Virus record (IMG/VR): IMGVR_UViG_2850796239_000012
Direction: 5' to 3' (one strand)
DNA: 51,993 bases
DNA from: a virus
Lineage: Duplodnaviria; Heunggongvirae; Uroviricota; Caudoviricetes
Both the position numbers and the translations under genes were made by a program. Positions 34,668-45,409 of the stretch are shown here, piece after piece (within the stretch, counting starts at the first letter, position 1; every line of letters starts with the position of its first letter). A model generated the notes under the pieces. That model was not told the DNA's origin. It made no database searches and was given only the letters and a program-made list of their open reading frames with translations.

Positions 34668-34742
<75 letters not shown>

Positions 34743-34745
34743 ATA

Positions 34746-34821
<76 letters not shown>

Positions 34822-34823
34822 GC

Positions 34824-34900
34824 TGGCCCACCACCGAGGACTCGAACCTCGCACCGTCAACTTAGAAGGTTGATGCTCTATCCGGATGAGCTAGTGGTGG
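34824..34900 (-). tRNA. tRNA-Arg (anticodon UCU)
   Basis: Acceptor stem CCACCAC/GTGGTGG (unusual C1-G72), anticodon stem TCAAC/GTTGA with loop CUUCUAA, T-arm CGAGGTTCGAGTCCTCG, CCA encoded. Confidence 0.7.
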
Positions 34901-34901
34901 T

Positions 34902-34978
34902 TGGTGGCCCTTGCTGGACTTGAACCAGCGACCTGGCGATTATGAGTCGCTCGCTCTGACCAACTGAGCTAAAGGGCC
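34902..34978 (-). tRNA. tRNA with CAU anticodon, body resembling minor tRNA-Ile (ileX/ileZ type)
   Basis: GGCCCTT acceptor stem, anticodon loop CUCAUAA, T-arm GCTGGTTCAAGTCCAGC, CCA encoded; Ile(LAU) versus Met cannot be settled from sequence alone. Confidence 0.7.
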
Positions 34979-36489: not shown

Positions 36490-37395
36490 CTATATTTCCA
36501 GACATCTGTTATCACTTAACCCATTACAAGCCCGCTGCCGCAGATATTCCCGTGGCGAGCGATAACCCAGCGCACTATGCGGATGCCATTCGTTATAATG
36601 CTCGAACGCCTCTGCAAGGTTCTTTGCTGCCGTTAACCCGTCTGGTTTGGGCATGATACTGATGTAGTCACGCTTTATCGTTTTCACGAAGCTCTCTGCT
36701 ATTCCGTTACTCTCCGGACTCCGCACCGCCGTGTTCTTCGGTTCAAGTCCCAACATCCGGGCGAACTGGCGTGTTTCATTAGCCCGGTAGCATGAACCAT
36801 TATCCGTCAGCCACTCCACTGGAGACGACGGAAGATCGTTGCCGAAGCGGCGTTCCACCGCTCCCAGCATGACGTCCTGTACTGTTTCACTGTTGAAGCC
36901 GCCGGTAGTCACCGCCCAGTGCAGTGCCTCACGATCACAGCAGTCCAGCGCGAACGTGACACGCAGTCTCTCTCCGTTATCACAGCAGAACTCGAACCCG
37001 TCAGAGCACCATCGCTGATTGCTTTCTTTCACGGCCACTCTGCCTGTATGTGCCCGTTTCGATGGCGGTACAGCAGGTTTTCGCTCAAGCAACAGCGCAT
37101 TCTGGCGCATGATCCGGTAAACACGTTTGGCATTGATCGCAGGCATACCATCAAGTTCTGCCTGTCTGCGAAGCAGCGCCCATACCCGACGATAACCATA
37201 CGTGGGCAGCTCTCCGATAACATGGTGTATACGGAGAAGCACATCCGTATCATCAGTGTGACGACTGCGGCGGCCATCCATCCAGTCATCGGTTCGTCTG
37301 AGAATGACGTGCAACTGCGCACGCGACACCCGGAGACAACGGCTGACTAAGCTTACTCCCCATCCCCGGGCAATAAGGGCGCGTGCGCTATCCAC
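36490..37395 (-). CDS. insD: IS2 OrfB (InsD transposase catalytic part)
   Basis: 301-aa DDE-type ORF overlapping orfA, typical IS3-family arrangement. Confidence 0.85.
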
Positions 37396-37718
37396 TTTTT
37401 TGCCCGTCCATATTCAACGGCTTCTTTGAGGAGTTCATTTTCCATCGTTTTCTTGCCGAGCAGGCGCTGGAGTTCTTTAATCTGCTTCATGGCGGCAGCA
37501 AGTTCAGAGGCAGGAACAACCTGTTCTCCGGCGGCCACAGCAGTAAGACTTCCTTCCTGGTATTGCTTACGCCAGAGAAATAACTGGCTGGCTGCTACAC
37601 CATGTTGCCGGGCAACGAGGGAGACCGTCATCCCCGGTTCAAAGCTCTGCTGAACAATTGCGATCTTTTCCTGTGTGGTACGCCGTCTGCGTTTCTCCGG
37701 CCCTAAGACATCAATCAT
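37353..37718 (-). CDS. insC: IS2 OrfA (InsC)
   Basis: 121 aa from [26 protein letters not shown]… (internal Met of the listed ORF). Confidence 0.85.
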
Positions 37719-37982
37719 CTGTACTCCAATGACTAGTCTAAAAACTAGTATTAAGACTATCACTTATTTAAGTGATACTGGTTGTCTGGAGATTCAGGGG
37801 GCCAGTCTAGTAGTTACGCACACGCTTAAAGTCTGCGTGTATCCACTCACCTATTTTGATTTGATGCAGAAAATCGCAACTCTCCGGCGTCGCCGGGAGA
37901 AGTAATCCGGAAGAGGTTTGTTTGACCAGTTGTATATGTGCCATCGGCTTTCTCCGGTGGCACGGTGTTACACAGCAGGAGT

Positions 37983-38270
37983 TCAATCCTGCTCAAGATT
38001 GTAGATGAGTTTATTCTTCAGCAAAAGCAGAAAACCAGCCTTAAAACCAATCTCTTTCAAAACCCGTAATGATGTGACAAATTCGTCCTCACGCAAAATA
38101 AAACCGTCCGTCAGAAGTCCATTACAAAAATAAAATAACACAGCACCGCTCTTCCTTTGTTGAGATTGCAAACATCTAATGCGGCAATGGCTGACAATCG
38201 CTCCATTCTCAACGCGCACAGCATAGAGGCCATTTTCACTAAAAATTTCACGCAATTCTTCGATTTTCAT
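37983..38270 (-). CDS. Hypothetical protein
   Basis: 95-aa ORF between IS2 and the hok locus; no recognisable family. Confidence 0.3.
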   Translation of the reverse strand: MKIEELREIFSENGLYAVRVENGAIVSHCRIRCLQSQQRKSGAVLFYFCNGLLTDGFILREDEFVTSLRVLKEIGFKAGFLLLLKNKLIYNLEQD

Positions 38271-38398
38271 CTTCAGAATCCTTCCAGATAAATAGCTCTC
38301 CCCTGTTCGGGGTCCATCCCTCTTCTCCCTGCGCGCTACTTAAGTGAGTCGATTCTATCTGCGAAGGTGCGCGAATCAAATTCACCGGAAATAAACAA

Positions 38399-38452
38399 CA
38401 AAAAACCCGCCGAAACGCTGAGAGATCACAGCGATGGGCGGGTTAAGTGCGG
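38399..38452 (-). terminator. Intrinsic terminator at the 3' end of the hok transcript
   Basis: On the minus strand: AACCCGCCC…(loop)…GGCGGGTTTTTT. Confidence 0.5.
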
Positions 38453-38519
38453 GTGCGTTGAGGATGCCTGACACATCAGAGGTGGGCGGGGATGGGATCA
38501 GCTCCCCGCCCGGTCACTC

Positions 38520-38675
38520 TTACTTCCTGGATTCGTAGTCTACGAAGACAGCGACCTCCGTCTGGCCGGTTCGGATTCGTACCTCACAGAGGTCTTTCCT
38601 CGTTACCAGTGCCGTCACTATGACGGTTAAACAGATGACGATCAGGGCGATTAACATCGCCTTTTGCTGCTTCAT
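38520..38675 (-). CDS. hok: Hok/Gef-family type I toxin (HokD/RelF-like)
   Basis: 51 aa MKQQKAMLIALIVICLTVIVTALVTRKDLCEVRIRTGQTEVAVF…, very close to recalled HokD/Gef; an in-frame upstream extension (to 38732) is mok-like. Confidence 0.85.
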   Translation of the reverse strand: MKQQKAMLIALIVICLTVIVTALVTRKDLCEVRIRTGQTEVAVFVDYESRK

Positions 38676-38902
38676 AGCCTGCTTCTCCTTGCCTTTCGGC
38701 ATGTAAGAGGCTAACCTACATGTGCAAAGCATGAAATTGGCCTCAGATTAATGTTAAGCGTCTTGCCGGACGCGTAATGTTAACTGGGGCTTTTCTCTAT
38801 CTGCCTTTTGGTGTTCATGCCTGAAGCAGATAGCCTCAAGCACCCGCAGTCATTCTACTTACCTCGCCAATATGAAATCAATCAGAAAGGTGCCCCATAA
38901 AA

Positions 38903-39589
38903 TCACTCCTTCTCTTCTTTACCGTAGTGGAGTTGACCAATTTTGATAAGAGGGCGTCCCTGAGATTTGCGGTGTAGATTGGTATCGCGCAGAGAATACA
39001 CACAGCCACAATATTCCTGCTGATAGAATTTTTCGCGCTTGCTGATTTCAATCATACGGGACGAGCCGCCCTGCTTGCGCCAGTTATAATCCCAGTACAC
39101 CATGCCCGGATAATGCGCGACGGCTCGCCGCCCACAGTCGTTAACCTGCTGCATATTTTTCCAGCGTGAAATGCCCAGTGAACTGCTGATCACACTGAAA
39201 CCATTTTCAGCGGCGTACAGCGCTGTCCGCTCAAAACGCATGTCAAAACACATGGTGCAACGGATCCCTCGTTCGGGCTCCCATTCCATTCCTTTGGCTC
39301 GTTCAAACCAGTTGTCTGTGTCGTAATCAGCATCAATAAACGGCACGCCGTGTTGTTCAGCAAAGCGAATATTCTCATCCTTACGAATTAAATACTCTTT
39401 CTGAGGATGAATGTTCGGGTTGTAGAAAAAGATGGTGTAGTCGATTCCCGAAGCCTGAAGCGCCTCCATCACCTCACCGGAACATGGAGCACAGCAAGAG
39501 TGCAGTAGTAGTTTGTTTGCCCCGTTTGGGAGCTCCAATTTGGGCCGTTTGAAATCAGCAACTGTCATAAATATGTTTATTGGGGTCAT
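38903..39589 (-). CDS. QueH-like (DUF208) Cys-rich protein, putative epoxyqueuosine reductase homologue
   Basis: 228 aa with …[11 protein letters not shown]… and …CTMCF… / …CGC… cysteine motifs characteristic of DUF208/QueH as recalled. Confidence 0.55.
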
Positions 39590-44560: not shown

Positions 44561-45409
44561 ATGTTGAATGTAGCTATTGAAAACCAGAACGGGTGGAATT
44601 ATAGTGCACCTGCACCTCATAAAACGGGTGCCGGGATTGCTACCCCGACGATGACTACTGCGCATAACCGCGCTCAGGCGGTTTTTTTATGCGTCAAGCA
44701 CAGCCACATTCAGATTATGGTGGGGCGTGCAGGGCAGCCGCAAGGCTGGCCGGTTTCGGTAGTCACCGGTTGTAGCAACCCTGTGCGTCTCACCACCCAT
44801 GAGATTGCTACCTCTGGTGGTGAGTTATTTAAACTGACTATCGAGGCTGCCATCATGGCTACTATCCTTACCCTTTCTCACCCTGACGTAACCATCGAAA
44901 ATGGTCGCGCTGTCACTACGTCTGTTGCGGTTGCGGAGTTCTTCCGGAAAATGCACAAAAACGTTATTCAGAAGATCGAAACTCTCGAATGCTCGCCGGA
45001 GTTTAACCGGCTTAATTTTAAGCCCGTCACCTATACCGACGCCAAAGGCGAAAAACGCCCAATGTACCAAATCACCAAAAACGGCTTCGTTTTCCTGGTG
45101 ATGGGCTTCACTGGCAAAAAAGCCGCCGCATTCAAGGAAGCCTACATTGCTGAGTTCGACCGCATGGAGGCCGAACTGCGCCAGAATAACACCCCACCTG
45201 CTGACAAGATGATTCCGGGTGATGGTCGCACTCTGGTTGTTCACTTCGACAAATTCGGCAATGTCGAATTCACCGAAACCGTTCCTGATGGCGCACTGGT
45301 CTGTACCCTGGAGACTTTCCGGTTTTATCTGGAAAAACAGGGATGGACTCTTGTTAACCGGGGCGCAATTAAAAATATGACTGTGGAACAATTACTTTCT
45401 TTAAAATAA
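44561..45409 (+). CDS. Rha-family phage regulatory protein (antirepressor-like)
   Basis: C-terminal 184 aa (from Met at 44855) carry the Rha-type region …TSVAVAEFFRKMHKNVIQKIE…FNRLNF…MYQITKNGFVFLVMGFTGKKAAAFKEAYIAEFD…; the upstream 98 codons are in frame with a good SD at 44561 and may be an extension or a separate small ORF. Confidence 0.6.
   Translation: MLNVAIENQNGWNYSAPAPHKTGAGIATPTMTTAHNRAQAVFLCVKHSHIQIMVGRAGQPQGWPVSVVTGCSNPVRLTTHEIATSGGELFKLTIEAAIMATILTLSHPDVTIENGRAVTTSVAVAEFFRKMHKNVIQKIETLECSPEFNRLNFKPVTYTDAKGEKRPMYQITKNGFVFLVMGFTGKKAAAFKEAYIAEFDRMEAELRQNNTPPADKMIPGDGRTLVVHFDKFGNVEFTETVPDGALVCTLETFRFYLEKQGWTLVNRGAIKNMTVEQLLSLK

What the first reader, a model, noticed from the sequence alone, without database searches (positions are those of the whole stretch)
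38395..38760. hok/mok-type type I toxin locus with 3' terminator; sok antisense not located
The 51-aa Hok/Gef-family toxin is preceded in frame by a mok-like extension and followed by a long structured 3' region ending in an intrinsic terminator. The expected antisense Sok RNA should be encoded on the plus strand around 38680-38760, but I could not pin its promoter or terminator. The locus could stabilise the prophage or act in abortive infection.
Basis: partly seen in the sequence, partly recalled or inferred. Interest (0 to 1): 0.45.

Follow-up and report, generated by a model that had tools for sequence, protein, structure and literature searches.

The report
Intact prophage hok/mok/sok toxin–antitoxin locus

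Summary
On the minus strand there is a 51-aa Hok/Gef toxin ORF (38520-38675; Pfam E 1e-22), an in-frame 70-aa mok ORF starting at 38732, a structured 3' UTR and an intrinsic terminator (38400-38442).

The locus is larger than reported.

The full-length mRNA folds with its 5' tac element paired to the 3' fbi element (z = -8). Removing fbi makes the 5' end refold locally, as in plasmid R1 hok.

I placed Sok by homology with the annotated sokW of phage 933W and sokC of K-12. Its promoter is TTGCCT-17-TAACCT (38689-38717, +). The RNA is 38724-38794 (+): a 15-nt free 5' tail, a long hairpin and a U-tract. It covers the mok Shine-Dalgarno and start codon.

Hok is 50/51 identical to HokW, which has been shown to be a toxin. 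The same DNA is annotated hokD in RefSeq. Relatives occur in 4713 of 5426 complete E. coli genomes.

Verdict: already known, low interest. One by-product: the Sok 5' tail is more than ten times as variable as the rest of the locus among phage relatives.

The parts
38852..38881 (-). hok mRNA promoter: -35 TTGATT (38876-38881), 18-nt spacer, -10 TAGAAT (38852-38857)
   Evidence: Consensus scan, 9 of 12 matches. The -10 and the start region are conserved in 933W and GB089; homology to other phages breaks within the spacer/-35.
38400..38845 (-). Full-length hok mRNA (about 446 nt), from GGGUGCUUGAGG to the terminator U-run
   Evidence: The 5' end equals position 1 of the Rfam RF01794 model and lies 7 nt after the -10. 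MFE -191.5 kcal/mol, z = -8.07 against shuffles. Ends are inferred, not mapped.
38834..38845 (-). tac (translation-activator) element at the mRNA 5' end, GGGUGCUUGAGG
   Evidence: Pairs with fbi in the full-length MFE fold and refolds into a local hairpin (with 38817-38827) once fbi is removed.
38797..38833 (-). ucb (38824-38833) / dcb (38797-38806) stem-loop of the leader
   Evidence: Paired in the MFE fold. One pair shows compensatory changes among relatives: AU 26, GC 13, UA 1.
38741..38744 (-). mok Shine-Dalgarno (GAGG), 8 nt before the mok AUG
   Evidence: Read from the sequence. Lies within the region complementary to Sok.
38520..38732 (-). mok ORF, 70 aa, in frame with hok and sharing its stop
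   Evidence: ORF list. Same layout as the annotated mokW/hokW and mokC/hokC.
38685..38690 (-). hok Shine-Dalgarno (AAGGAG)
   Evidence: Read from the sequence. Invariant among relatives.
38520..38675 (-). hok ORF, 51-aa membrane toxin
   Evidence: Pfam PF01848 E 9.8e-23; phrog_251 E 1.3e-32; 50/51 identical to HokW; identical DNA annotated hokD in RefSeq.
38451..38463 (-). fbi (fold-back inhibitory) element, CCUCAACGCACCC
   Evidence: 12 bp plus one bulge with tac, -21.1 kcal/mol, reached by 7 of 5000 shuffled 3' UTRs. Invariant in 52 phage relatives.
38400..38442 (-). Intrinsic terminator: CCCGCC...GGCGGG stem with an inner CGCUG/CAGCG stem, then U6
   Evidence: Fold -22.8 kcal/mol. It is a variant of the CCCGCUUCGGCGGG-U terminator of K-12 hokD with about 23 nt inserted in the loop.
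38689..38717 (+). sok promoter: -35 TTGCCT (38689-38694), 17-nt spacer, -10 TAACCT (38712-38717)
   Evidence: Both hexamers are identical in all 57 relatives found through the Hok protein in which the Sok gene could be parsed; a further 116 loci agree, but they were retrieved with a pattern spanning this promoter, so they agree by construction. The R1-type plasmid has TTGCCT-17-TAATCT at the same place. TAACCT is the element changed by the 'pro-less' mutagenesis primers of PMC8621323.
38724..38794 (+). Sok antisense RNA, 71 nt: 15-nt single-stranded 5' tail, 24-bp hairpin, U-tract
   Evidence: Aligned position for position with the annotated sokW of 933W. The +1 G matches the annotated start of K-12 sokC. 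Fold -28.6 kcal/mol, z = -4.7. The 3' end is good to about +/-3 nt.

Best explanation
This is an intact hok/mok/sok type I toxin-antitoxin module of the hokW/hokD lineage. It sits in the nin region of a Rac/lambda-like prophage, between queH and the late-gene activator, in the same orientation as the early-right operon.

Mechanism, inferred from the R1 hok/sok paradigm and the sequence anatomy:
1. A constitutive promoter makes a stable mRNA of about 446 nt. Its 5' tac element is locked to the 3' fbi element, so neither mok nor hok is translated and Sok cannot bind well.
2. Slow 3' trimming removes fbi. The 5' end then refolds into a local tac hairpin and the mRNA becomes translatable.
3. The short-lived 71-nt Sok RNA, made from the opposite strand, pairs through its free 5' tail with the mok Shine-Dalgarno/AUG region. 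This blocks mok translation, to which hok translation is coupled, and the duplex is destroyed by RNase III.
4. When Sok synthesis stops, Hok is made. It inserts into the inner membrane and collapses it.

Most likely role, by analogy with hokW-sokW of Sp5: the module is silent in the lysogen and is activated when the prophage is induced, which speeds up lysis and release.

What is shown here is every sequence and structure element. What is inferred is transcription, RNA processing, toxicity and the biological role.
For: - Toxin: Pfam HOK_GEF E 9.8e-23. Hok is 50/51 identical to HokW, and the locus is 92% identical in DNA to the 933W locus, where mokW, hokW and sokW are annotated.
- Leader: Rfam RF01794, 117 bits.
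- tac-fbi: they pair in the full-length MFE fold, z = -8.07. The duplex of -21.1 kcal/mol is reached by 7 of 5000 shuffles. Deleting fbi makes the 5' end refold locally.
- ucb/dcb stem: one pair shows compensatory changes.
- Sok: classic shape of free 5' tail, hairpin and U-tract, with a promoter conserved from R1-type plasmids to phages.
- Experiments on hokW-sokW: HokW is toxic and localises to the inner membrane; sokW neutralises it from its own promoter with partial dependence on RNase III and Hfq; sokW disappears on mitomycin C induction; deleting the locus halves phage release (PMC8621323).
- Orientation: same as cro-ydaT-ydaV-queH.
Against: - There are no expression or toxicity data for this exact allele.
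- The sok -10 (TAACCT) matches the consensus at only 3 of 6 positions, and the promoter scan missed it.
- The MFE fold of the truncated mRNA shows the 5' refolding but does not open the mok initiation region.
- NCBIfam Hok subfamily score is 55 bits, below its cut-off of 73.
- The terminator carries a loop insertion about twice as stable as the common form, which could change the 3' processing clock.
- An IS2 sits about 600 nt downstream, in the neighbouring nin gene. The prophage may therefore be defective, in which case an induction-linked role would not apply.
- Chromosomal hokA, hokB and hokC loci did not mediate post-segregational killing in earlier work, as summarised in preprint 10.1101/2025.08.07.668861.
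Confidence: 0.88

Rival explanations
1. The module is functional but serves mainly as an addiction (post-segregational killing) device. Cells that excise or delete the prophage lose the unstable Sok, keep the stable hok mRNA, and die.
For: This is the textbook role of R1 hok/sok, and all R1 regulatory elements are present. hok genes are about four times enriched in prophages (preprint 10.1101/2025.08.07.668861).
Against: No stabilisation has been shown for prophage hok loci. Deleting hokW-sokW did not affect growth of the lysogen, and the phenotype found concerned lysis and release. Chromosomal hok loci that were tested did not give post-segregational killing.
Confidence: 0.3
2. The module is functional and acts as an abortive-infection or exclusion system against superinfecting lytic phages. 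Host transcription shut-off depletes Sok, and Hok kills the infected cell early.
For: R1 hok/sok on a high-copy plasmid reduced T4 plating efficiency and plaque size (cited in PMC8621323). Prophages often carry defence genes.
Against: hok genes are not enriched near defence systems. The effect reported for R1 was modest and came from a high-copy plasmid. Nothing in this window tests the idea.
Confidence: 0.2
3. The locus is a sequence-intact but physiologically silent relic, like most K-12 chromosomal hok loci. It is carried along by nin-region recombination without any function in this host.
For: K-12 hokD in the Qin prophage has lost its whole leader and sok. The prophage here carries an IS2 nearby. 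Earlier tests found chromosomal hok loci inactive.
Against: Every element is intact. The hok ORF, both promoters, tac, fbi and the Sok hairpin are nearly invariant across dozens of independent phage contexts with unrelated flanks. That argues for purifying selection on the whole module. The 92%-identical hokW-sokW is active.
Confidence: 0.1

Closest known systems
hokW-mokW-sokW of Stx2 phages 933W / Sp5 (VT2-Sakai)
   Same: 92% DNA identity over the locus. Hok is 50/51 identical. The 70-aa in-frame mok, the sok promoter hexamers and the 55-nt Sok hairpin plus U-tract are the same. The position in the nin region of a lambdoid prophage is the same.
   Different: There are 7 substitutions, all within the first 16 nt of Sok, that is, in the recognition tail and mok start region. 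Hok residue 50 is R rather than E. The -35 region and upstream neighbour differ (queH here). This locus has a canonical hairpin terminator after fbi, which the 933W-type 3' end lacks.
hokD (relF) of the Qin cryptic prophage, E. coli K-12
   Same: Hok is 46/51 identical. The coding region, the 3' UTR hairpin, fbi and the core terminator are shared. RefSeq names the identical protein HokD.
   Different: K-12 hokD has lost everything upstream of the hok Shine-Dalgarno (tac, ucb/dcb, mok, sok), which is replaced by relBE. The window copy is complete. The terminator here has a loop insertion of about 23 nt.
hok/sok of plasmid R1 (compared here through an R1-type IncFII plasmid locus, CP021777)
   Same: The order of elements is the same: tac, ucb, dcb, Sok hairpin, mok SD/AUG, sok promoter (TTGCCT-17-TAATCT), hok SD, hok, fbi, terminator. 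tac and fbi change together: GGCGCUUGAGG/CCUGAAGCGCC against GGGUGCUUGAGG/CCUCAACGCACCC.
   Different: Only 41% Hok identity. mok is out of frame with hok in the plasmid (58-nt offset) but in frame here (57 nt). The Sok hairpin here is about 20 nt longer. One is on a plasmid, the other in a prophage.
hokC (gef)/mokC/sokC of E. coli K-12
   Same: mok is in frame and shares the hok stop. The annotated sokC 5' end falls at the same aligned G as Sok here. The tac sequence is identical.
   Different: It is a chromosomal locus disrupted downstream by IS186. The Sok hairpin is shorter. The Hok sequence is more divergent.

Membership tests
[quoted passage not shown] | Hok/Gef-type membrane toxin of about 50 aa (PF01848) | tested here: met
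   Pfam E 9.8e-23, 79.9 bits against a cut-off of 22; phrog_251 E 1.3e-32.
[quoted passage not shown] | Overlapping mok ORF, with its own Shine-Dalgarno, upstream of hok | tested here: met
   70-aa ORF at 38520-38732, with GAGG 8 nt before its AUG. Same layout as the annotated mokW and mokC. Translational coupling itself was not tested.
[quoted passage not shown] | Cis-encoded antisense Sok RNA with its own promoter, complementary to the mok initiation region, built as a free 5' tail plus a terminator hairpin | tested here: met
   Promoter at 38689-38717 and RNA at 38724-38794 on the plus strand, placed by position-for-position homology with annotated sokW and sokC. Fold -28.6 kcal/mol, z = -4.7. 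Promoter hexamers are invariant in relatives.
[quoted passage not shown] | Long-range pairing of the 5' tac element with the 3' fbi element in the full-length mRNA | tested here: met
   12 bp with one bulge in the MFE fold, z = -8.07 for the whole mRNA. The duplex energy is reached by 7 of 5000 shuffles. The pair co-varies with the R1-type locus.
[quoted passage not shown] | ucb/dcb stem in the leader, and alternative tac hairpin after loss of fbi | tested here: met
   Both folds are predicted. One ucb/dcb pair shows compensatory changes: AU 26, GC 13, UA 1.
[quoted passage not shown] | Match to the curated covariance model of the hok leader/sok region (Rfam RF01794) | tested here: met
   117 bits against a gathering score of 59, full-length match to positions 1-157, E 4.5e-26.
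[quoted passage not shown] | 3' exonucleolytic activation of the mRNA; RNase III cleavage of the Sok-mRNA duplex; unstable Sok against a stable mRNA | not testable with these tools
   Needs RNA half-life and processing experiments. Partial dependence on RNase III and Hfq was shown for sokW (PMC8621323).
[quoted passage not shown] | Toxicity of Hok and neutralisation by Sok | not testable with these tools
   Shown for HokW/sokW, where the toxin is 50/51 identical. Not shown for this allele.

The most novel reading that the evidence does not exclude
The free 5' tail of Sok, which is also the mok start region on the other strand, may be under diversifying selection. That would create specificity classes, so that the several hok/sok copies an E. 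coli genome usually carries do not silence or rescue one another. Placing the module in the sense orientation inside the early-right operon may also let read-through transcription at induction occlude the convergent sok promoter. This would explain the still unexplained RecA-dependent disappearance of sokW.
Probability: 0.25. Interest if true: 0.45.

Novelty: already known. Interest (0 to 1): 0.12.

Why it matters
The finding adds little. It is a correctly recognised copy of a textbook module, already annotated as hokD in identical RefSeq sequence and present in most E. coli genomes. The useful outputs are practical: exact coordinates for the Sok gene and for the full mRNA, which automated annotation leaves out, and the note that the Rfam 'sok' hit lies on the hok-mRNA strand. 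The variability of the Sok tail, and the orientation of the locus within the early operon, give cheap testable ideas about how many hok/sok copies coexist in one genome and how Sok is lost at prophage induction.

Tried and rejected
- The promoter/terminator scan did not report the sok promoter (its -10 matches only 3 of 6) or the hok terminator (loop longer than 8 nt). Both had to be established by homology and folding.
- An exact-pattern scan of species-representative genomes for the terminator-insert variant found nothing. The variant was later found in 8 sequences: the window, one E. coli chromosome and six IMG/VR contigs.
- NCBIfam gave only sub-threshold Hok hits.
- Folding 3'-truncated mRNAs reproduced the refolding of the 5' end, but not an opening of the mok initiation region. 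That step of the R1 model is therefore not supported by MFE prediction here.
- I tried to test whether copies in the same genome carry different Sok tails. Only four parsable pairs were available, three with different tails and one identical. That is too few for any conclusion.
- I considered whether the Rfam hit on the minus strand meant that Sok is on the minus strand. I rejected this because the model consensus starts with the tac sequence and ends at the hok AUG, so it models the mRNA leader.
- I considered a decayed locus of the K-12 hokD type. I rejected it because the whole leader is present.

Full report
**Observation**

The features lie on the minus strand. The ORF list gives a 70-aa ORF at 38520-38732, whose last 51 codons start at the ATG at 38675.
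- The protein matches Pfam HOK_GEF (PF01848) at E 9.8e-23.
- It matches PHROG 251, 'MokW-like host killing', at E 1.3e-32.
- The leader 38670-38845 matches Rfam RF01794 over the full model, at 117 bits against a gathering score of 59.

These scores rule out chance. The interval, however, is cut short on the 5' side.

**Anatomy of the hok mRNA**

A sigma-70-like promoter, TTGATT-18-TAGAAT, occupies 38852-38881. Seven nucleotides after the -10 comes GGGTGCTTGAGG (38834-38845). This is position 1 of the Rfam model and the tac element of hok mRNAs.

The 450 nt from 38845 to 38396 fold to -191.5 kcal/mol, with z = -8.07 against dinucleotide shuffles. In that fold:
- Nucleotides 1-12 pair with CCUCAACGCACCC at 38451-38463, the fbi element. 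This is 12 bp with one bulge.
- Taken alone, the duplex is -21.1 kcal/mol. Only 7 of 5000 shuffled 3' UTRs reach that value.
- Nucleotides 13-22 (ucb) pair with 40-49 (dcb).

When the 3' end is cut back past fbi, the 5' end refolds into a local hairpin. This is the switch described for R1 hok. MFE prediction did not, however, show an opening of the mok initiation region.

The terminator at 38400-38442 is CCCGCC...GGCGGG followed by U6, at -22.8 kcal/mol. It carries about 23 nt inserted in the loop relative to the CCCGCUUCGGCGGG terminator of K-12 hokD and most phage copies, which folds to -11.8 kcal/mol. That insertion is why the simple scan missed it.

**Locating Sok**

Phage 933W (AF125520) carries annotated mokW, hokW and sokW, and its locus is 92% identical to this one. 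Aligning the annotated 71-nt sokW position for position places Sok at 38724-38794 on the plus strand.

The +1 G lies in the same aligned context (ACATGTG) as the annotated 5' end of K-12 sokC. Upstream are TTGCCT (38689-38694), a 17-nt spacer and TAACCT (38712-38717).

Three observations support this promoter:
- Both hexamers are identical in all 57 relatives retrieved through the Hok protein in which the Sok gene could be parsed. A further 116 loci were retrieved with a pattern spanning the promoter and so agree by construction.
- An R1-type plasmid has TTGCCT-17-TAATCT at the same place.
- The primers Takada et al. used to build their promoter-less sokW change exactly TAACCT. That last point is my reading of their primer sequences.

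The RNA folds into a 15-nt free 5' tail, a 24-bp hairpin and a U-tract, at -28.6 kcal/mol and z = -4.7. It is complementary to the mok Shine-Dalgarno (38741-38744) and the mok AUG (38730-38732).

The Rfam 'sok' hit is on the hok-mRNA strand. The model consensus begins with tac and ends at the hok AUG, so the strand of the hit must not be read as the strand of Sok.

**Relatives and context**

- Identical DNA occurs in two complete E. coli chromosomes, where the ORF is annotated hokD. Relatives at about 93% identity occur in 4713 of 5426 complete genomes, with a median of 2 and up to 9 places per genome.
- Hok is 50/51 identical to HokW, 46/51 to K-12 HokD and 41% to an R1-type Hok.
- K-12 hokD has lost everything upstream of the hok Shine-Dalgarno. 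The window therefore holds the complete form of that locus.
- mok is in frame with hok here, as in mokW and mokC. It is out of frame in the R1-type plasmid.
- The locus lies in the nin region of a Rac/lambda-like prophage, directly after queH. It has the same orientation as cro, ydaT, ydaV and the late-gene region.
- An IS2 sits about 600 nt downstream, in the neighbouring gene.
- A recent survey found hok genes to be about four times enriched in prophages (preprint 10.1101/2025.08.07.668861).

**Mechanism and role**

The sequence elements fit the R1 paradigm: an inert full-length mRNA, 3' trimming, refolding, and Sok blocking mok and so hok. For the 92%-identical hokW-sokW, Takada et al. (PMC8621323) showed that:
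- HokW is toxic and localises to the inner membrane.
- sokW neutralises it from its own promoter, with partial dependence on RNase III and Hfq.
- sokW is lost rapidly after mitomycin C, and HokW production then requires RecA.
- Phage release is halved when the locus is deleted.

I therefore take help with lysis after induction as the most likely role. Prophage addiction and phage exclusion are rivals, and a silent relic is the least likely reading given how strongly the whole module is conserved across unrelated flanks. None of these roles can be tested with sequence tools.

**By-product: the Sok tail is a diversity hot spot**

I compared the distinct phage-borne relatives segment by segment.

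| Segment | Pairwise diversity per site |
|---|---|
| 17-nt Sok 5' tail | 0.33 |
| 53-nt Sok hairpin and U-tract | 0.025 |
| sok promoter | 0.022 |

- There are 20 tail alleles among 173 loci.
- Only the +1 G, the CAT that encodes the mok AUG, and two further positions are invariant.
- All 7 differences between this Sok and sokW fall in the first 16 nt.

This could reflect selection for Sok specificities that do not cross-react among co-resident copies. It could equally be the only unconstrained stretch in a locus otherwise locked by RNA structure on both strands. The four co-resident pairs I could examine were too few to decide.

**Verdict**

The thing is already known and annotated. Interest is low.

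Noticed in passing
window 38724-38740 (+), which is also the mok start region on the minus strand: The free 5' tail of Sok is a diversity hot spot among phage-borne relatives: pairwise diversity 0.33 per site against about 0.025 in the Sok hairpin and promoter, with 20 alleles in 173 loci. It could mark specificity classes, or simply be the only unconstrained stretch.
   Followed up: partly
window 38406-38442 (-): The hok terminator carries an insertion of about 23 nt in its loop, forming an inner CGCUG/CAGCG stem. It folds to -22.8 kcal/mol, against -11.8 for the common form. The variant is in 8 sequences: the window, one E. coli chromosome and six IMG/VR contigs. It might slow the 3' processing that activates hok mRNA.
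   Followed up: partly
L004 (phage 933W) and 17 other phage loci, just downstream of fbi: 933W-type hokW loci lack the canonical CCCGC..GCGGG-U terminator straight after fbi and continue into unrelated sequence. Their mRNA 3' end must therefore be formed differently.
   Followed up: no
window 38670-38845 (-): The Rfam RF01794 'sok antitoxin' model is built on the hok-mRNA strand, from tac to the hok AUG, and not on the Sok strand. Automated annotation from this model would put Sok on the wrong strand and make it too long.
   Followed up: yes
window 38534-38537 (-): The Hok Tyr47 codon is UAC followed by G. This is the TadA A-to-I editing motif reported to recode the equivalent Tyr to Cys in hokB, hokC, hokD and hokE mRNAs (preprint 10.1101/2025.08.07.668861). 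No tRNA-like hairpin around the site was checked.
   Followed up: no
window 38352-38379 (-) and ORF 37983-38270 (-): Directly after the hok terminator there is a second promoter-like site with the same hexamers as the hok promoter (TTGATT-16-TAGAAT). It lies upstream of a 95-aa ORF of unknown function (phrog_340). The layout of terminator, promoter and small ORF resembles a moron.
   Followed up: no
window 38903-39589 (-) and 34668-34978 (-): The prophage encodes an epoxyqueuosine reductase QueH immediately upstream of hok, and a cluster of four tRNA genes: Met-CAT (annotated as Ile in RefSeq, presumably read as the lysidine-modified CAU isoacceptor), Arg-TCT, Thr-TGT and Gly-TCC.
   Followed up: no
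window 44612-44800 (+): Adjacent Rfam hits to isrK (61.5 bits) and C4 antisense RNA (75.7 bits) lie inside the 5' part of the 282-aa Rha-family ORF at 44561-45409. This suggests a P1 immI-like or IsrK-like RNA control leader and a mis-called start codon.
   Followed up: no
window 49416-49594 (-): There is a full-length RalA sRNA hit (213.6 bits), the antitoxin of the Rac-prophage RalR/RalA type I system. The prophage therefore appears to carry a second type I toxin-antitoxin locus. I did not identify the RalR ORF.
   Followed up: no
window about 36490-37770 (-): An IS2 (InsC-like orfA at 37353-37763 and orfB at 36490-37395) interrupts the DUF1367 nin-region gene, which is intact in E. coli FDAARGOS_943/944. 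No complete E. coli genome in the collection has this exact arrangement.
   Followed up: partly
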